Shown piece by piece: positions 1,687 through 38,588 of a stretch of 60,976 nt of DNA. The notes below the pieces were generated by a model. It saw nothing but the letters and a program-made list of their open reading frames with translations, did no database searches and was not told where the DNA came from. The stretch spans positions 1 through 60,976 of the IMG/VR virus record IMGVR_UViG_3300042922_000323, one strand, 5' to 3'. The position numbers were made by a program, and so were the translations under genes. The stretch's first letter is position 1, and every line of letters starts with the position of its first letter. This DNA is from a virus (taxonomy: Duplodnaviria; Heunggongvirae; Uroviricota; Caudoviricetes).

Positions 1687-1875
1687 ATGAGAGCCACAGG
1701 AATTGTAAGAAGGGTTGAGGATATGGGTAGGATAGTTATACCAAGAATGATAAGAGAGCAACTAGATATAAACGAAGGAGACCCTATGGAGTTGTTTATT
1801 GAAGGAAATAGTGTTATATTTAAGAAGTACAATTCCTCGGAACTGTCCCCTCCGTCTGCTGATGAGTATGAATAA
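1687..1875 (+). CDS. abrB: AbrB/SpoVT-family transition-state regulator
   Basis: MRATGIVRRVEDMGRIVIP..IREQLDINEGDPMELFIEG matches the AbrB N-domain; start moved to ATG 1687. Confidence 0.9.
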   Translation: MRATGIVRRVEDMGRIVIPRMIREQLDINEGDPMELFIEGNSVIFKKYNSSELSPPSADEYE

Positions 1876-14758: not shown

Positions 14759-15571
14759 TTATACATCTGTGTACTTATCAATTAATTTAGCTATCTTCTT
14801 AATAATTCGGCTTACCCTCATTTGTGAGATGTTGTATTCCCTGGCGGTCTGTGTCTGTGAATTACCTTCCATCTGAGAGTTTAGTACATTAACCTCAGTG
14901 TCGGTCAACTTAGCCCTTATAGAATCTATTATTGAATCTACATACACCTTATCAACCACATCTATTTCAACATTTTCATCAGCGTGTAATAAATCCATAA
15001 GACAGGTGTCTGGTACATATCGCTGTTTCTCAACTAGTGGGTATGTTACCTTCCCCTCTAATGACTTTACAGGTTGTCCAATCTGTAGCACCTTTGTAAT
15101 CTTTTCTTCCTTCTCGTCAAGCAGCATTGCTAAATCTTCAACAGAAGGCATATATCCGAAATCGTTCTCGACTTTTCTAATATCCATTAGAAGTGAGTGA
15201 GCCGTTCTTGTAAGTCGAATTATATTCGCTGTGTCCCTCAGAAAACATCTAATTTCTCTCACAATAGCAGTAACTGCAAAGGAAGAGAACTTTATACCTC
15301 TTGTAGTATCGAAGGCTTTAATTGCCTTTATATAACCCATACGTCCCAGTTGTAATATATCTTCTTTTTCAAGACCGTTGTTGTCAGCTATTGTTTCGGG
15401 TTTTCCAATGTACTTATGAACGGAGTGCCAAATCAAATTCTCGTTAACTAATAGAACATCGCCCAAATAAGCGGGGTCTTCTTTACAGCGTTCAATGTTA
15501 TCCATTCGGTACATAGAGTAGTAGGTTTTGTCTTTACTGAGGTTTTCCTTTATGTGTTTTGGGAAATCCAT
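14759..15571 (-). CDS. SigB/F/G-like RNA polymerase sigma factor
   Basis: NENLIW..., EDILQLG.MG.IKA...FD..RG.KFSSFA...I..EIR.FLRD, SQM.VSRI. Confidence 0.92.
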   Translation of the reverse strand: MDFPKHIKENLSKDKTYYSMYRMDNIERCKEDPAYLGDVLLVNENLIWHSVHKYIGKPETIADNNGLEKEDILQLGRMGYIKAIKAFDTTRGIKFSSFAVTAIVREIRCFLRDTANIIRLTRTAHSLLMDIRKVENDFGYMPSVEDLAMLLDEKEEKITKVLQIGQPVKSLEGKVTYPLVEKQRYVPDTCLMDLLHADENVEIDVVDKVYVDSIIDSIRAKLTDTEVNVLNSQMEGNSQTQTAREYNISQMRVSRIIKKIAKLIDKYTDV

Positions 15572-18663: not shown

Positions 18664-19136
18664 CCTTTCGTTTTTGTTTTATTAGCTCTTACAGTGTACT
18701 TATACGTTGAGGTCTTACCAGAGTTAAATGAACTTTTAACTTTTTCTAAAACATTTAATGTTGCATCGTAATCACTCATGTCTGAGTTCGGGTGGTTATT
18801 TAAGTAGTAGTTCTTGTAAGCGGTTACCACGATATTGTTATTAATATCAACTACTACACAAGTTACTCTATCCCTAAATGGAACTCTACCTCTCAGAAGT
18901 ACTCTACTTTCTTCGCCATTAATTAAATGGTACTCGATAATATTCCCATCATTAATGGTCTGATTAACTTCCTCGACAGTTATCCTTCTCTCTTTCATTC
19001 TTTGAAGACTGTGTTGTGTCACTTGGAATTTACCTCGAATCAACATCTTCAAGACATTCTTTTCCTCGGCAGTCATCTGAGTATGGTGCTTTCTTATTCC
19101 CCTAACTTCATCTATTGCCTTTAGCACTTCCGCCAT
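18660..19136 (-). CDS. DUF4258-like (RelE/BrnT-fold) putative RNase
   Basis: TQHSLQRM.ER.I....V...I..G.IIE...RVLLRG...VVV...VVTAY; start moved to 19136. Confidence 0.75.
   Translation of the reverse strand: MAEVLKAIDEVRGIRKHHTQMTAEEKNVLKMLIRGKFQVTQHSLQRMKERRITVEEVNQTINDGNIIEYHLINGEESRVLLRGRVPFRDRVTCVVVDINNNIVVTAYKNYYLNNHPNSDMSDYDATLNVLEKVKSSFNSGKTSTYKYTVRANKTKTKG
18698..18727 (-). promoter_or_regulatory. phage-specific (middle) promoter motif
   Basis: TTAACT-N15-CGTATAAGT, inside the 3' end of the DUF4258 gene. Confidence 0.75.
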
Positions 19137-30886: not shown

Positions 30887-31432
30887 TTAGAACGGTGGCT
30901 CGTCATCTTCGTTATTACTAGTTCCACCAGTAATTCCTGAGTTCATAAGAGCCAAAATAGACTCTTTAGTTGAAGGTGTTACCATTGCTTCAATATCAGG
31001 AAGTTCAACTTCTTCAAAGTCAAATGCTTCAATATCTCTAGCAAAGAACTCATATGTAGTATCGAGTTTCTCACCACTACGAACAATTTTGAAATCTCTC
31101 TTTGTTACATCACCATACTCTTCAACCTGAGTAAGTAGTCTCTTAAAGGTCTTCTTAGAAGCCTTAAAAATCTTGACCTTTCCATCTGCTCTATCGAGCA
31201 CTGGAATGTATGCTTTAAATGAAGGGTACTTACCTGCTGCACATATAGGGCAGTTGTTTTTACCTGGGCAACATACTGTCTTCCAATTTCCTGCGAACTG
31301 TTCCGTGTGTTCATAAGCCGCCATCACTTCATCAATGGGCACAAGTATTCTTACCACAACACTTTTGTTGTTCTCCAATTTCAGAAAGTTTGCACTGTTT
31401 TTAAGTGCTTCGGTCATTGCGTTAAAAGCCAT
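30887..31432 (-). CDS. phage single-stranded DNA-binding protein (gp32-like)
   Basis: FLKL..VRIL, C.CPIC, acidic aromatic tail DDEPPF. Confidence 0.8.
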   Translation of the reverse strand: MAFNAMTEALKNSANFLKLENNKSVVVRILVPIDEVMAAYEHTEQFAGNWKTVCCPGKNNCPICAAGKYPSFKAYIPVLDRADGKVKIFKASKKTFKRLLTQVEEYGDVTKRDFKIVRSGEKLDTTYEFFARDIEAFDFEEVELPDIEAMVTPSTKESILALMNSGITGGTSNNEDDEPPF

Positions 31433-31489
31433 AGTCTCATTCTCCTTTTAATTTGTTATTCGTATTTGGGTTATCTTCCCTTACAAAGT

Positions 31490-31598
31490 ACTTATACGTG
31501 CAAACCAGTCCCCAGTTAAATGCTTTTTAAAATGTTTTTCGACAAATTCTGCACAGTATTTTCATAGTACTTATACGCAACAAAAAAGCCAGAGTTAA
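31490..31598 (-). promoter_or_regulatory. tandem middle promoters with a Spo0A box between
   Basis: Motif at 31490-31519 and 31569-31598; TGTCGAA (minus) at 31538-31544. Confidence 0.75.
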
Positions 31599-31626
31599 GT
31601 GCACTCTGGCTTGTTATATGTAAAAT

Positions 31627-32199
31627 TTAAGCGTCTTCATATTTCTTAATAACACCTTTCCATAACTGACTAATGCGAGCCTTGGTTAGTCCAAGCATTG
31701 TAGCTATTTCGGTAAACTCATACCCCGCACAACGGAGTTTGAATATCTGTTTCTCCCTGTCATTGAGACCAATGTTCTCCATAAAATCTATCTCATACTC
31801 AGAACAACCATAATCTCCGTCAACGCTTTTTAATACAGCATTGCTTTTATGGGTACTGCCACTATCATTACTAATATCTTCGGGAGATTCAACTAGCTCA
31901 ACAGCTAAACAAAGTGGCATGTTGGTCTTTGCTTTCCTAAGACAATCCCTTATTCTATTATTAATAACATTCTCAAAGAATGTACTGGCTTTAGCCCTTG
32001 AACTGTCATATGCATCTACTGCTCTATATACAGAGAGTAGTACTTCTTGAACTACGTCTTCCTTTTCCATACCTACGAAGTCTGTAGCATGTATTTTAAC
32101 CTCGCACATTTCCTTTGCTTTAGTTAAAAATTTGTCCATATCACCGACTGCAAGTAATTCATCATAACCCATCGACACAGTATAACTCACAAAATACAC
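31627..32199 (-). CDS. ECF/SigH-like RNA polymerase sigma factor
   Basis: EDVVQEV.L..Y.A...YD....STF...I.NRI.D.LR; L.DREK.IF.L...GY...EIA.MLG. Confidence 0.85.
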   Translation of the reverse strand: MYFVSYTVSMGYDELLAVGDMDKFLTKAKEMCEVKIHATDFVGMEKEDVVQEVLLSVYRAVDAYDSSRAKASTFFENVINNRIRDCLRKAKTNMPLCLAVELVESPEDISNDSGSTHKSNAVLKSVDGDYGCSEYEIDFMENIGLNDREKQIFKLRCAGYEFTEIATMLGLTKARISQLWKGVIKKYEDA

Positions 32200-32209
32200 T
32201 CTCCTTTAA

Positions 32210-33277
32210 TTATTTAATATTATATAAAAATTCCTTATTAAGCTCACTTCTATATTCTTCAAATGTTATCTTTTCAACTTGTTTTAGTAAGCCCGCTTTT
32301 AATAAGTCATTTGCATCTTTGAACTGGATTTCTTCCTCGTCCAGTGTGTCAATACCATACCTGGCACATGGATACTTAATTACATTCACCCTTATTGGAG
32401 AATGTGTAGTAATCATGTTGTATGCTTGTAGGTTTGCTCTAACACCCCAGTAATCATTATCTAGGAACAGGTTAACAGTCTTTATATCTGCTTTCATAAG
32501 TTCTTGTACTTGCTCTTTAAATACTATCCTTCCAAGGATAGCCCCCGCAGGTATTCCTCCTTGGTAGCAAGCCATTGTGTCTGTTTCTGACTCATTTAAT
32601 GCAATCTCGGTAATATGTATGTTTGCCTGTTTAATATAGTATAGACCGTATACTATATCTTTCTTATCAAGGTTCTTCTCATTTAAAAAACCTTTTCTAC
32701 CGACAAACCTTCTTTTAACAAATCTTATTCTGCCATCAGAGGTTCTTATAGGAATTACCATAGATTGAGTTTGTTCATCAAACCCTATCTCGTACTTATC
32801 AAGTACCCTATCCTTAAATCCTCTGCTGTACATATAAGGGTGTCTCTTTCCTATATATTGTGCTATTTCTTCTTCTAAGTGGGAGCACCTTCTATCTTGA
32901 CTCTTCTTATCCAGTATAGCTTCAAGGTCAAGCTTGGGTCTCTGCTCTGCTGATAAAACTACGAAGTTTTTAAGGAGGAATTGCTCTCCCACAACTTCAT
33001 TTTTAAACCCACAGCAATGGGCTACTAATTGGGGCAAATTTCCAGTTTTTCCACAACTGAAACATTGGAATGTGTAAGGATAACTTGTCAGTATTCCAAA
33101 AGAAGGAGTACTCTCTTCTTCATAAGGACAACAACACATTAAGTTATCTCCGCTTGCTTTTACTTTGGTAAGAGCCGTTGTATTGCATTTGGCTTGACCA
33201 GACTCTTCATAATAAAGTCTTAACTCTTGTATTACTTCATCGATGTCTAAATATATTGTTGATAATATTGTGCCCAT
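32210..33277 (-). CDS. dnaG: DNA primase (CHC2 Zn finger + TOPRIM)
   Basis: CCPY...PSF...CFSCG, ESETD, FLDND. Confidence 0.9.
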   Translation of the reverse strand: MGTILSTIYLDIDEVIQELRLYYEESGQAKCNTTALTKVKASGDNLMCCCPYEEESTPSFGILTSYPYTFQCFSCGKTGNLPQLVAHCCGFKNEVVGEQFLLKNFVVLSAEQRPKLDLEAILDKKSQDRRCSHLEEEIAQYIGKRHPYMYSRGFKDRVLDKYEIGFDEQTQSMVIPIRTSDGRIRFVKRRFVGRKGFLNEKNLDKKDIVYGLYYIKQANIHITEIALNESETDTMACYQGGIPAGAILGRIVFKEQVQELMKADIKTVNLFLDNDYWGVRANLQAYNMITTHSPIRVNVIKYPCARYGIDTLDEEEIQFKDANDLLKAGLLKQVEKITFEEYRSELNKEFLYNIK

Positions 33278-33298
33278 TTTTTTCCACCTCTCGCCATT

Positions 33299-33344
33299 AT
33301 ATTACAACTTTCGACAAATAGTGTCAACCCTTTTTCGACAAATT
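33299..33344 (-). promoter_or_regulatory. SigA-type promoter flanked by two Spo0A boxes
   Basis: TTGACA 33323-33328, TAATAAT -10 region ~33299-33305; ATTTGTCGAAA at 33310-33320 and 33334-33344. Confidence 0.75.
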
Positions 33345-33490
33345 ATGGAATATTTTTTCTAAAGATTGGAAATATAGGAATATGGGAAGCCCCAAACGCA
33401 GTGGGCTTCCCTGTAGACAAGTAATAAGAAATTTTTTTTATCTTTCTCACCTACTAGAATACCCTGCCGTAATAGGTAAACCAATGTCAG

Positions 33491-34051
33491 TTATTGGTTT
33501 ATCAAATAGCGGTAAGCATCTAGCTGTCTTTGGTATTCTTCTGTCTTATGAAACCCGCACGACTTATACTCAAAACAGTGACCCCTGTATATGCAGTCAG
33601 GTACACTTACGCTGTATAATTCGGGTTGTTCTTCCTTTATACTTTCAAGTACTTCCTTCCATGCTTCCCGTGTCTCAGGTGAAGCCAGAAAGCATAATCT
33701 CTTCCTTGAAATATTTATAAATGCCTGCGGGTTCGCTGCAAACTCATGTTCAACAGGAGCACCCTGTGGTATTACATCTCTATTCTCACCCGTTCGGTCA
33801 GTTCTCTGAGTTCGCACCCAATGGATAATACCAAGCCAGTGTCTGACAAAATGAACACTTACCCAATAAGGTATTTCATACCATTTACACTTTAAATTTA
33901 ACTGCCTTATAGGAGAATGTTCACATAATAACATTCTTCTTTTCCACTCAGAGGAAGGTTCACCTTCCCCTGCTTCTTTATGTATAGTAGTTCTGGCAGA
34001 ATCAGCAACGTCCCGCCATGTTCCATTCATACCAAGAAATTTAACCCGCAT
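33491..34051 (-). CDS. thyX: flavin-dependent thymidylate synthase
   Basis: EHSPIR, H..RH..., TQR.DR, SRKRLC, C.YRG.C.E. Confidence 0.88.
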   Translation of the reverse strand: MRVKFLGMNGTWRDVADSARTTIHKEAGEGEPSSEWKRRMLLCEHSPIRQLNLKCKWYEIPYWVSVHFVRHWLGIIHWVRTQRTDRTGENRDVIPQGAPVEHEFAANPQAFINISRKRLCFLASPETREAWKEVLESIKEEQPELYSVSVPDCIYRGHCFEYKSCGFHKTEEYQRQLDAYRYLINQ

Positions 34052-34229
34052 TTACTTTAGCCCCCTTGTTTAAGAAGCTAAAAGCAATCATTTTCTTCCA
34101 TGACCCAACACCGTGCTGTTCAGTAACATACTTCTTAGCAATGTACATCAAGTCCTTATTATCAATAGCTTCTAATAAGGTTGTAAAAACATCGTCCCTG
34201 TCAAATGCATAAGTAATCCTATAGGTCAT
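34041..34229 (-). CDS. hypothetical protein
   Basis: 62 aa. Confidence 0.5.
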   Translation of the reverse strand: MTYRITYAFDRDDVFTTLLEAIDNKDLMYIAKKYVTEQHGVGSWKKMIAFSFLNKGAKVNAG

Positions 34230-37607: not shown

Positions 37608-37629
37608 TCCCGTTTTACTTTTTCAAGAG

Positions 37630-37659
37630 ACTTATACGCACGGTCACGTACACAGTTAA
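37630..37659 (-). promoter_or_regulatory. phage-specific (middle) promoter motif
   Basis: TTAACT-N15-CGTATAAGT. Confidence 0.8.
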
Positions 37660-37682
37660 ATAAAATTTTAAAAAATTATTTA

Positions 37683-37712
37683 TTGACAATATTATCCTGG
37701 TGGGTTTATAAT
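37683..37712 (+). promoter_or_regulatory. SigA-type promoter of the recombinase
   Basis: TTGACA-N18-TATAAT. Confidence 0.8.
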
Positions 37713-37739
37713 ACGCTCATAATATAAATTATGGGCGGT
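37712..37739. other. dif-like tyrosine-recombinase site (11-6-11)
   Basis: TACGCTCATAA TATAAA TTATGGGCGGT; arms 8/11 inverted. Confidence 0.7.
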
Positions 37740-37745
37740 GATATT

Positions 37746-38588
37746 ATGAGTGCTGTGGATGACTTCAAACGCTACTTAGAAGTGGAACGCAGGGCATCGG
37801 CACATACTGTTGAAGGGTATATGACTGACCTAGTGCAGTTTTTCGACATTGTTAAGAAGGATATTGATAAGGTTGAGTCTGACGATATAACCCTATTTTT
37901 GGAGAAACTTGTAGAAAAAGGTCTGATAGTTTCTACTACTAATAGAAAGTTATCTTCGGTCAAAACTTTCTATAAATATCTTGTATTACATAAAGTATTG
38001 AAGTATGACCCCTCCTCACTGATACAGAGCGGCAAGCTAGAACAAAGACTTCCAAAACCTGTAGACTTAGAGGATATTAACTTAATTATTAACATAGTAG
38101 ATAATCTACGAGACAAGCTAATGTTTGAATTGCTGATCGGGTTGGGTGTAAGACGTGAGGAACTGGCGGGAATAAGGAAGAGTAACATTAATTATAGACG
38201 TGGGTATGTACGTGTGTTTGGTAAAGGAAACAAAGAGCGTATTGTTCCTGCCTATAAGAAAGCTCTGGACTTAGCACTAGAATATGGGAGTTCCCATAAT
38301 AGTCCGTGGTTGTTCTCAGGGCGTGACCCTTCTAATCATATCTCGGTAAGAAGGGTGAATGAACTGGTATCCTACTGGGTAGATAAAGCAGGGCTTTCAG
38401 GTAAGGGGATAACCCCTCATAAGTTTCGTCACTCATTTGGAACTTACCTATATGAAAATGGTGCTGATATAAGGGCAATACAGGACATGATGGGGCACGC
38501 TTCGATAGATACAACTAACAGGTACACCAAAGTATCCCTAAAACGTAATATAGAAGAATACAAAAAGTACCATCCAATGGCAAAATAA
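37746..38588 (+). CDS. XerC/XerD-like tyrosine recombinase
   Basis: S..T..GY, G.RREE, GKG.KER, TPHKFRHSF, GH....TT..Y; all catalytic residues present. Confidence 0.95.
   Translation: MSAVDDFKRYLEVERRASAHTVEGYMTDLVQFFDIVKKDIDKVESDDITLFLEKLVEKGLIVSTTNRKLSSVKTFYKYLVLHKVLKYDPSSLIQSGKLEQRLPKPVDLEDINLIINIVDNLRDKLMFELLIGLGVRREELAGIRKSNINYRRGYVRVFGKGNKERIVPAYKKALDLALEYGSSHNSPWLFSGRDPSNHISVRRVNELVSYWVDKAGLSGKGITPHKFRHSFGTYLYENGADIRAIQDMMGHASIDTTNRYTKVSLKRNIEEYKKYHPMAK

What the first reader, a model, noticed from the sequence alone, without database searches (positions are those of the whole stretch)
33299..33344. Two extended Spo0A boxes flank the -35 of the promoter feeding primase and the ECF sigma
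Seen: the 11-mer ATTTGTCGAAA (minus strand) occurs twice, 24 bp apart (33310-33320, 33334-33344), on either side of a perfect TTGACA; one copy lies in the -35/-10 spacer. Known: TGTCGAA is the 0A box, TTTGTCGAA its extended high-affinity form, and Spo0A represses phi29 early promoters and replication. Inference: Spo0A~P could shut off primase and the downstream sigma factor, halting lysis in sporulating cells and favouring packaging of the genome into the spore.
Basis: partly seen in the sequence, partly recalled or inferred. Interest (0 to 1): 0.8.

Follow-up and report, generated by a model that had tools for sequence, protein, structure and literature searches.

The report
Spo0A-type boxes on phage master promoter
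A 125-kb soil phage carries two perfect copies of the DNA motif bound by Spo0A, the bacterial sporulation master regulator, on the host-type promoter that drives its primase and its own sigma factor; this probably lets it stop its programme when the host prepares to sporulate, a known trick of phage phi29 seen here in a new phage family.

Summary
ATTTGTCGAAA occurs three times in the 124,976-nt phage genome, all on the minus strand within 1.8 kb. Two copies (33333-33343, 33309-33319) flank TTGACA. The second fills the 17-nt spacer before TAATAT.

This is one of about six strong sigma-A-type promoters in intergenic DNA, and the only one in the replication module. It drives primase plus an ECF-type sigma, whose presumed promoter motif occurs at 12 or more sites.

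The two closest relatives (primase 78-79% identical) keep both boxes at the same 24-bp spacing. In one of them the flanks of box 2 have diverged and only TGTCGAA, the Spo0A core, survives. More distant relatives carry the core at other positions and orientations near the same promoter. Among 630 same-composition 7-mers it ranks first.

About half of the relatives carry a LexA box in the same promoter instead, so a host regulator reads this slot. I read the boxes as Spo0A operators that repress (confidence 0.55). There are no binding data and the host is unknown.

The spore-packaging part has no support: no parS sites and no partition genes. The third copy is not conserved.

This scan has noted Spo0A boxes on other phage DNA many times. 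I class this as a new member of a known kind.

The parts
33333..33343 (-). Box 1, ATTTGTCGAAA (core TGTCGAA at 33334-33340). It ends 5 nt upstream of the -35 hexamer, about -51 to -41 from the predicted start, in the UP-element position.
   Evidence: Eleven invariant columns (TTTGTCGAAAA) in the alignment with L027 and L028.
33322..33327 (-). -35 hexamer TTGACA (6 of 6). In the two closest relatives it is preceded by TG, which gives TGTTGAC, an imperfect 0A-like box (5 of 7) 11 bp after box 1.
   Evidence: invariant.
33309..33319 (-). Box 2, ATTTGTCGAAA (core at 33310-33316), inside the 17-nt spacer, about -27 to -17.
   Evidence: Only the 7-mer core is invariant across own, L027 and L028.
33299..33304 (-). 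-10 hexamer TAATAT (4 of 6). The predicted start is near 33292, giving a leader of about 15 nt with GAGGTGG at 33284-33290.
   Evidence: The start site is inferred, not mapped.
33384..33411 (-). GC-rich hairpin after the upstream ThyX-like gene. It probably insulates the primase-sigma unit from upstream transcription.
   Evidence: Sequence. An equivalent hairpin followed by a T-run is present in L027.
32210..33277 (-). DnaG-type primase gene (355 aa), first gene of the unit.
   Evidence: Pfam Zn_ribbon_DnaG and Toprim_2 above cut-off; 87 homologues.
31627..32199 (-). ECF-type sigma factor gene (190 aa), 10 nt after the primase stop.
   Evidence: Sigma70_r2 and r4. TIGR02937 at 61.4 bits against a cut-off of 42.9. 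It lies directly downstream of primase in all relatives.
31586..31612 (-). Intrinsic terminator after the sigma gene. Its loop holds the -35 (TTAAC) of the first ECF-type promoter.
31537..31547 (-). Box 3, the third exact ATTTGTCGAAA. It lies between two tandem ECF-type promoters: about +18 to +28 from the first and 17 nt upstream of the -35 of the second. Both are ahead of the SSB-like gene and polA.
   Evidence: Not conserved in L027 or L028.
31490..31598 (-). Two tandem ECF-type promoters (TTAAC, 16 nt, CGTATAAGT): 31598-31569 and 31519-31490.
   Evidence: The same motif occurs at 12 or more sites in the genome, always ahead of genes.

Best explanation
The two boxes are operators for the host's Spo0A (0A boxes) on the promoter of the primase-sigma operon.

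This promoter is one of the few that the host sigma-A RNA polymerase can read. It makes the phage's own ECF-type sigma, which in turn is needed for a dozen or more phage promoters of replication and nucleotide-metabolism genes, including the operon that ends in a second, SigF/G-like sigma.

When Spo0A~P rises in stationary phase or at the onset of sporulation, it would bind at three places:
- box 1, at -51 to -41, the alpha-CTD/UP-element position;
- box 2, at -27 to -17, inside the spacer;
- probably the imperfect box that overlaps the -35.

Binding would keep RNA polymerase off the promoter. Without new primase and sigma, the whole downstream programme would stay silent.

Shown here: the motif, its position, its conservation, and the cascade layout.
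Inferred: that Spo0A binds, that the effect is repression, and that the ECF-type motif is read by the phage sigma.
For: 1. Both boxes match the 0A core TGTCGAA exactly and have T-rich 5' and A-rich 3' flanks. The literature gives the core as TGTCGAA, with protein contacts at G2, C4 and G5 and A/T flanks, and the same specificity in Bacillus and Clostridioides (PMC3485338, PMC2731898).

2. Phylogenetic footprint. In the alignment of own, L027 and L028, the conserved islands are box 1, GTTGACA, box 2, the -10 and the Shine-Dalgarno sequence. The rest of the intergenic region is poorly conserved. In L028 the flanks of box 2 have changed and exactly the 7-mer core remains.

3. Recurrence with turnover. 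L029 (primase 64% identical) has a reversed box 18 nt upstream of the -35. L032 (57%) has tandem boxes between the -10 and the Shine-Dalgarno sequence. L007 (49%) has a box 8 nt upstream of the -35 plus a reversed copy. L009 and L011 have one each.

4. In 200-nt windows upstream of primase in 30 loci, TGTCGAA ranks first of 630 same-composition 7-mers: 8 loci and 13 hits against a mean of 0.43 loci. It ties in loci only with GTTGACA. After dropping the two close relatives it is still first. Density in a -200 to +20 window is 2.1 per kb, against 0.16 per kb in the rest of the loci.

5. The slot is read by a host regulator in the relatives. LexA (Cheo) boxes occupy the spacer of the same promoter in 13-14 of 29 loci, at 3.1 per kb against 0.28 per kb elsewhere.

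6. The position gives leverage. Only about six intergenic regions hold a promoter scoring 10 or more of 12 against the sigma-A consensus, and this is the only one in the minus-strand replication module at 14.7-37.6 kb. The other promoters there are of the ECF type.

7. Host range of the family. Named relatives come from Paenibacillus, Brevibacillus, Cytobacillus, Solibacillus, Bacillus and Clostridium. Three Paenibacillus genomes that carry relatives each encode Spo0A.

8. The phage shows no Spo0A_C domain and no HTH_3 (CI/Cro-type) domain in a six-frame search.

9. Precedent. Spo0A represses the early promoters of phi29 and Nf through 0A boxes at or beside the core promoter (PMC2731898).
Against: - There are no binding or expression data.
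- The host is unknown. The DNA comes from a soil metagenome.
- TGTCGAA is not enriched genome-wide: 8 copies in 125 kb. By contrast phi29 has 6 copies (PMC2731898) in a far smaller genome.
- The consensus boxes are 24 bp apart. In abrB and phi29 the boxes are separated by 3 bp, and here the neighbouring imperfect boxes are weak.
- The three copies are identical over 11 nt, more than Spo0A is known to need. This would also fit a factor that reads a longer site, or a recent duplication.
- The third copy is not conserved.
- 22 of 30 related loci lack the box.
- The phage encodes at least one DNA-binding protein of its own, an AbrB/SpoVT-N type protein.
Confidence: 0.55

Rival explanations
1. The boxes are operators for a phage-encoded regulator. 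It could be a middle protein that shuts off the early promoter, or a lysogeny-type repressor. The match to the Spo0A box would then be coincidence or mimicry.
For: - The three copies are identical over 11 nt and all lie in the regulatory DNA of the replication module.
- Shut-off of early promoters by phage proteins is common (general knowledge).
- The phage encodes a 62-aa AbrB/SpoVT-N DNA-binding protein at 1687-1875 and many small proteins of unknown function.
- The family includes plasmid and prophage forms that need a repressor.
Against: - Phage repressor-operator pairs usually diverge together. Here the same 7-mer recurs at new positions and orientations in relatives down to 47-49% primase identity, and flanks vary while the core stays.
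- Most relatives lack the box altogether and use a LexA box in that slot.
- No HTH_3 domain is found anywhere in the genome.
- The site is not palindromic.
- Only three sites exist genome-wide.
Confidence: 0.2
2. The boxes bind another host global regulator whose site overlaps this sequence. CodY is the obvious candidate: the real CodY site in B. subtilis bcaP contains ATTTGTCGAAT.
For: - PMC5314169 lists a bcaP oligonucleotide that contains AAATTTGTCGAATTTTC.
- Each box matches the 15-nt CodY consensus at 10 of 15 positions.
Against: - That is five mismatches per box when the W position is counted. Three of them are in the central TTCWG core, at exactly the positions (G, T, C) that are invariant in the relatives.
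- Box 2 of L028 matches CodY at only about 7 of 15 positions (my count).
- I recognised no TnrA, cre or LexA pattern by eye, and a scan found no LexA box in the own promoter.
Confidence: 0.08
3. The boxes are Spo0A sites, but Spo0A~P activates or has no net effect. Alternatively the repeats are promoter architecture (UP element, spacer) with no dedicated factor.
For: - Box 1 lies where class I/II activators and UP elements sit (-51 to -41).
- Spo0A activates sigma-A promoters such as spoIIG through boxes near the -35 (textbook knowledge).
Against: - The promoter has a perfect -35, a 17-nt spacer and an adequate -10, so it needs no activator.
- A box that fills the spacer is a repressor position.
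- The GTCG centre is not UP-element-like, yet it is the most conserved part.
Confidence: 0.1

Closest known systems
0A boxes of Bacillus phages phi29 and Nf (Meijer, Castilla-Llorente, Salas; PMC2731898)
   Same: Consensus TGTCGAA boxes lie at or beside the core of early sigma-A promoters of a phage that infects a spore-former. Binding excludes RNA polymerase or its alpha-CTD and blocks the programme from the top.
   Different: - That phage is a small podovirus with protein-primed replication. This one is a 125-kb Jenst-like phage with a DnaG-type primase and PolA.
- phi29 has six boxes, some at the replication origins, plus parS sites for Spo0J. Here only three extended boxes exist, none is shown to lie at an origin, and there are no parS sites.
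- Here the controlled product is a phage sigma factor, so the effect would spread through a sigma cascade.
Cellular Spo0A-repressed promoters (abrB) and the 0A box defined in B. subtilis and C. difficile (PMC3485338)
   Same: The same 7-bp core with A/T flanks. The G2, C4 and G5 positions are conserved.
   Different: In abrB the boxes lie downstream of the start site, in tandem with a 3-bp spacer. Here two consensus boxes lie 24 bp apart and bracket the -35.
Host LexA as the direct repressor of a phage lytic promoter (B. thuringiensis tectivirus GIL01; recalled from memory, not read here)
   Same: A host global regulator, not a phage CI, sits on the promoter that starts replication and regulatory genes. 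Relatives of this phage carry Cheo boxes in the same spacer slot.
   Different: The window's phage has no Cheo box in that promoter. The signal sensed would be sporulation or stationary phase, not DNA damage.
CtrA-binding sites in promoters of Alphaproteobacteria phages ('lytic deferment', PMC9437464; title and abstract only)
   Same: Phages place sites for a host developmental master regulator on their promoters to time infection.
   Different: A different regulator, host clade and motif.
Phage-encoded sporulation-type sigma factors (PMC9429907; title and abstract only)
   Same: Phages of spore-formers carry sigma factors related to SigF/G. This phage has one at 14759-15571.
   Different: That work concerns the sigma proteins altering host dormancy, not host control of the phage sigma genes.

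Membership tests
Spo0A binding site (0A box) | Exact or near match to the 7-bp core TGTCGAA | tested here: met
   Three exact cores within the 11-mers.
Spo0A binding site (0A box) | The contact positions G2, C4 and G5 are kept under selection | tested here: met
   All seven core columns are invariant in own, L027 and L028 while the flanks of box 2 vary. The core recurs in L029, L032, L007, L009 and L011.
Spo0A binding site (0A box) | A/T residues flank the core | tested here: met
   TTT on the 5' side and AAA on the 3' side in all three copies. By my count, T at -1 in 8 of 13 family boxes and A at +1 in 8 of 13.
Spo0A binding site (0A box) | A second (imperfect) box 3 bp away, for a Spo0A~P dimer | tested here: inconclusive
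   After box 2, TGTAATA (4 of 7) follows with a 3-bp gap. After box 1 in L027 and L028, TGTTGAC (5 of 7) follows with a 4-bp gap. In the own sequence that position reads GGTTGAC (4 of 7). Read.
Spo0A binding site (0A box) | The host encodes Spo0A | tested here: inconclusive
   The host is unknown (soil metagenome). Three Paenibacillus genomes that carry relatives each have Spo0A_C. All named relatives come from endospore-formers.
Spo0A binding site (0A box) | Spo0A binds, and regulation depends on spo0A | not testable with these tools
   Needs EMSA or footprinting and reporter assays.
phi29-type spore-entrapment strategy | parS sites for Spo0J, or a partition system that carries the genome into the forespore | tested here: not met
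   No parS-like site within 2 mismatches; one site at 3 mismatches, at 71806. No ParB_N hit, and no AAA_31 hit above cut-off.
phi29-type spore-entrapment strategy | 0A boxes at the replication origin | not tested
   The origin is not identified.
Sigma-A (sigma-70 type) promoter | TTGACA, 16-18 nt, TATAAT | tested here: met
   6 of 6, a 17-nt spacer, and 4 of 6. Conserved in L027 and L028.
LexA (Cheo) box operator | GAAC-N4-GTTC in the promoter | tested here: not met
   None in the own promoter. Present in 13-14 related loci.
CodY box | AATTTTCWGAAAATT with few mismatches | tested here: not met
   Four mismatches per box without counting W, five with W, including the centre of the motif.
ECF (group 4) sigma factor | Regions 2 and 4 only, and a match to the ECF superfamily model | tested here: met
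   Sigma70_r2 and r4. TIGR02937 at 61.4 bits against a cut-off of 42.9.

The most novel reading that the evidence does not exclude
In this family of 100-126-kb Jenst-like phages and phage-plasmids, the sigma-A promoter that fires the phage's own ECF sigma cascade works as an exchangeable sensor slot. Different lineages have placed operators for different host master regulators in or next to its -35/-10 spacer: LexA in about half, Spo0A in the clade of this window and a few others, and both in one locus. The same cascade would then be triggered or held by DNA damage in some lineages and by the sporulation decision in others, with no phage CI-type repressor involved.
Probability: 0.4. Interest if true: 0.7.

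Novelty: new member of a known kind. Interest (0 to 1): 0.55.

Why it matters
Experimental proof of Spo0A control of phage development rests on the phi29 group. Elsewhere, 0A boxes have only been counted in genomes, for example SPO1 in PMC12991052.

Here the boxes sit at a defined control point: the promoter that makes a phage sigma factor. They carry a clear comparative footprint. The promoter fragment is short (33290-33350), so it gives a clean, testable case in a large, uncultured phage family of soil and fermenter spore-formers.

If the case holds, sensing of host dormancy by phages is broader than the phi29 paradigm. The apparent LexA/Spo0A exchange in one promoter slot would show how phages rewire to host signals.

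Tried and rejected
- DNA search of GenBank phages with 31300-34100 found no match.
- The exact two-box design with extended boxes has 0 hits in IMG/VR. A looser design (core, 6-12 nt, TTGACA, 3-9 nt, core) gave 9 loci, all coding sequence or tandem repeats and none a promoter.
- A primase search in IMG/VR with the single protein found nothing. The search with an alignment worked.
- The extended 9-mer shows no clustering in five complete relatives. The 10-mer occurs 13 and 19 times in two Paenibacillus genomes, close to the reversed-pattern control, which is uninformative without annotation.
- Using the upstream ThyX-like gene to find more promoter copies failed. It is a very widespread gene, 70-76% identical in Clostridia, and the contigs fetched were cellular or too short.
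- The other TGTCGAA copies in the window (16831, 37842, 44612, 47718) lie inside coding sequence. I set them aside.
- An antisense-promoter reading of the boxes (TCGACA as a -35 on the plus strand) was rejected. Boxes 1 and 2 have no usable -10 and no gene to drive. The scan flags only box 3, and weakly.
- An iteron or origin reading was considered. Two copies bracketing a -35, with the core recurring at shifting positions in relatives, fit a transcription factor better. This was not formally excluded.
- No Spo0E-like gene is present.
- No RNA holder was listed among sequencing runs, so expression could not be examined.
- I could not find an open paper that states an extended TTTGTCGAA(A) consensus.

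Full report
**Setting**

The window is the first 60,976 nt of a 124,976-nt IMG/VR phage record that is rated complete. The DNA is held by soil metagenome runs.

The finding lies in a minus-strand replication module. In order, the genes are:
- a DnaD-like initiator, a DnaC-like loader and a DnaB-like helicase;
- two small ORFs and a ThyX-like gene;
- a gap of 213 nt;
- a DnaG-type primase (32210-33277);
- an ECF-type sigma (31627-32199; TIGR02937 at 61.4 bits against a cut-off of 42.9);
- a terminator;
- an SSB-like gene, PolA and a Cas4-like nuclease.

The cultured relatives are Brevibacillus phages Jenst and SecTim467, with primase 35% identical. Jenst has the same order: helicase, primase, sigma-24, a hypothetical gene, polymerase.

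**The observation**

On the minus strand the intergenic region reads, in order:
- box 1 ATTTGTCGAAA (33343-33333);
- five bases;
- TTGACA (33327-33322);
- two bases;
- box 2 ATTTGTCGAAA (33319-33309);
- four bases;
- TAATAT (33304-33299);
- GAGGTGG;
- ATG at 33277.

It sits between two tandem promoters of the form TTAAC, 16 nt, CGTATAAGT that follow the sigma terminator.

The three copies are the only ones in the whole genome, and all are on one strand within 1.8 kb. Only five 11-mer families in the genome have three copies within 2 kb. Twenty Markov-1 simulated genomes gave 0 or 1 each.

The bare core TGTCGAA is not enriched. There are 8 copies in 125 kb, and the other copies I examined lie in coding sequence.

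**What the promoter controls**

A genome-wide scan finds few sigma-A-type promoters. About six intergenic regions reach 10 of 12 consensus matches. In the minus-strand block from 14.7 to 37.6 kb, the primase-sigma promoter is the only one.

The other intergenic promoters of that block carry the ECF-like motif. The motif occurs at 12 or more sites in the genome, at 4001, 7339, 18727, 19187, 27642, 30834, 31519, 31598, 37659, 85132, 89724 and 107584, always ahead of genes.

The unit that starts at 18727 ends in a second sigma (14759-15571). Its best match is the SigB/F/G subfamily, below the curated cut-off.

It is an inference that the phage ECF sigma reads the ECF-like motif. If it does, this single promoter gates the replication programme and, through the second sigma, probably later genes too.

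**Comparative evidence**

The primase has 87 homologues. I collected about 30 independent loci from IMG/VR, GTDB genomes, metagenomes and exact-protein look-ups. Every locus with enough sequence has the sigma gene directly after the primase gene.

The two closest relatives, L027 and L028 (primase 78% and 79% identical), keep the whole design with the same 24-bp box spacing. In the three-way alignment the invariant islands are TTTGTCGAAAA, GTTGACA, TGTCGAA, parts of the -10 and the Shine-Dalgarno sequence. The rest of the intergenic region is poorly conserved.

In L028 the flanks of box 2 have changed (tcg on the 5' side, tat on the 3' side) and exactly the 7-bp Spo0A core is retained.

Further out, the core reappears at other places around the same promoter:
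- L029 (64%): a reversed copy 18 nt upstream of the -35.
- L032 (57%): TGTCGAT followed directly by TGTCGAA, between the -10 and the Shine-Dalgarno sequence, and a degenerate copy before the -35.
- L007 (49%): a copy 8 nt upstream of the -35, with a reversed copy further up.
- L009: a reversed copy 6 nt upstream of a TTGCAA.
- L011: one copy.

In windows from -200 to +20 around the primase start, the core density is 2.1 per kb, against 0.16 per kb in the rest of the loci.

In the 200 nt upstream of primase, I counted hits for all 630 permutations of the seven letters. TGTCGAA ranks first, with 8 of 30 loci and 13 hits against a mean of 0.43 loci. It ties in loci only with GTTGACA, which is the -35 itself. 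It remains first after removing L027 and L028.

A fixed short core that moves and flips in position is what turnover of sites for a host factor of constant specificity looks like. It is not what co-diverging phage repressor-operator pairs look like.

**A host regulator reads this slot in the relatives**

In 13-14 of 29 related loci the promoter upstream of primase carries a LexA (Cheo) box, GAAC-N4-GTTC. It is typically placed exactly in the -35/-10 spacer, for example in L014, L012, L016, L018, L024 and L025. The density is 3.1 per kb against 0.28 per kb elsewhere.

Loci with 0A-type boxes lack Cheo boxes, except L009, which has both.

Many LexA-type loci come from isolate genomes. They include a 120.9-kb Paenibacillus plasmid, two Paenibacillus genome assemblies (one a complete chromosome) and an IMG/VR provirus. 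They are therefore probably resident elements held silent by LexA.

The window's phage has no Cheo box in any promoter.

**Which factor binds**

The literature I read gives these points:
- The 0A box is TGTCGAA. Spo0A contacts G2, C4 and G5. The core is flanked by A or T. Specificity is shared by B. subtilis and C. difficile Spo0A (PMC3485338).
- In phi29 and Nf, Spo0A represses early promoters through boxes at or beside the core promoter, in one case by excluding alpha-CTD from the UP element (PMC2731898).

Here box 1 occupies the UP-element position and box 2 the spacer. The promoter has a perfect -35 and a 17-nt spacer and needs no activator. Repression is therefore the likely outcome.

All named carriers or hosts of relatives are endospore-formers. 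Three Paenibacillus genomes that carry relatives each encode Spo0A.

The actual host is unknown. Two features hint at an anaerobic or facultative Firmicute, possibly a member of Clostridia:
- the phage's NrdD gene;
- its ThyX-like gene, which is 70-76% identical to cellular genes whose named sources are all Clostridia.

This would not change the reading, because Spo0A and its box are shared by both classes.

Six-frame searches of the phage find no Spo0A_C, HTH_3, ParB_N or Spo0E-like domain, and no ParA-type (AAA_31) hit above the curated cut-off. They do find a 62-aa AbrB/SpoVT-N protein at 1687-1875. That protein keeps a phage-factor rival alive.

CodY is a weaker rival. Each box has five mismatches to its 15-nt consensus, three of them at the very positions that are invariant here.

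**What is not supported**

There is no parS-like site within two mismatches and no partition gene.
- The third copy is absent from L027 and L028. Its role is open; one possibility is a roadblock at about +18 to +28 of the first ECF-type promoter.
- The 24-bp spacing differs from the tandem boxes with a 3-bp spacer in abrB and phi29. The neighbouring imperfect boxes are weak.
- Most relatives lack the box.

**Verdict**

The feature is real and non-random, and it is conserved as a Spo0A-type core on a promoter of high leverage. The best reading is repression of the primase-sigma operon by host Spo0A~P (0.55). The rivals are a phage-encoded factor (0.2), another role of the same sites (0.1) and another host factor such as CodY (0.08).

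In kind it is the phi29 mechanism in a new, large phage family, so I class it as a new member of a known kind. Earlier notes of this scan report Spo0A-type boxes on many other phage and prophage promoters, including one upstream of a phage sigma gene. Those are unchecked notes and I do not count them as evidence.

The more novel possibility is that LexA and Spo0A operators are exchanged in one promoter slot across the family. I give that about 0.4.

Noticed in passing
Loci L008, L009, L012-L016, L018, L024, L025, L026, L041 (upstream of primase): In about half of the relatives, the promoter ahead of the primase-sigma operon carries a LexA (Cheo) box, usually exactly in the -35/-10 spacer. Density is 3.1 per kb against 0.28 per kb elsewhere. 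This suggests that host LexA directly holds the phage sigma cascade in these plasmid or prophage forms.
   Followed up: partly
window 1687-1875 (+): A 62-aa protein that consists of an AbrB/SpoVT-type swapped-hairpin DNA-binding domain (TIGR01439 at 40.1 bits against a cut-off of 28.3). It is a phage copy of a transition-state-regulator fold, and a candidate regulator or a manipulator of the host.
   Followed up: partly
window 31586-31612 (-) and 31594-31598: The loop of the intrinsic terminator after the sigma gene contains the -35 (TTAAC) of the next ECF-type promoter, so termination and re-initiation overlap. L027 and L028 keep this arrangement.
   Followed up: partly
window 33491-34051 (-): A short (186-aa) ThyX-like protein that only weakly matches Pfam Thy1. 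It is 70-76% identical to more than 2,800 proteins. The named ones are all from Clostridia, and one fetched contig (L047) has a cellular gene context. This hints at a recent gene acquisition and at the host lineage.
   Followed up: partly
window 35347, 36057, 36138, 36584 (-): TTGATGATTTAA, exact or with one mismatch, occurs four times within 1.3 kb inside the helicase, loader and initiator genes. It is one of only five clustered 11-mer families in the genome. It could be origin iterons or a coding coincidence.
   Followed up: no
window 14759-15571 (-): A second phage sigma factor (270 aa) whose best match is the SigB/F/G subfamily (113 bits, below the cut-off). It lies at the end of an operon headed by an ECF-type promoter at 18727.
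   Followed up: partly
window 37608-37730: A perfect-consensus sigma-A promoter (TTGACA, 18 nt, TATAAT) drives a Xer-like tyrosine recombinase (37731-38588). It lies back to back with the ECF-type promoter of the initiator operon. A homologous recombinase sits at the same place in L032.
   Followed up: no
L027 2985-3010: At the 3' end of the upstream gene in the closest relative, a second TTGACA is followed by TGACGAA and TGTCGTA, both one-mismatch 0A-like boxes. The window has no clear counterpart.
   Followed up: no
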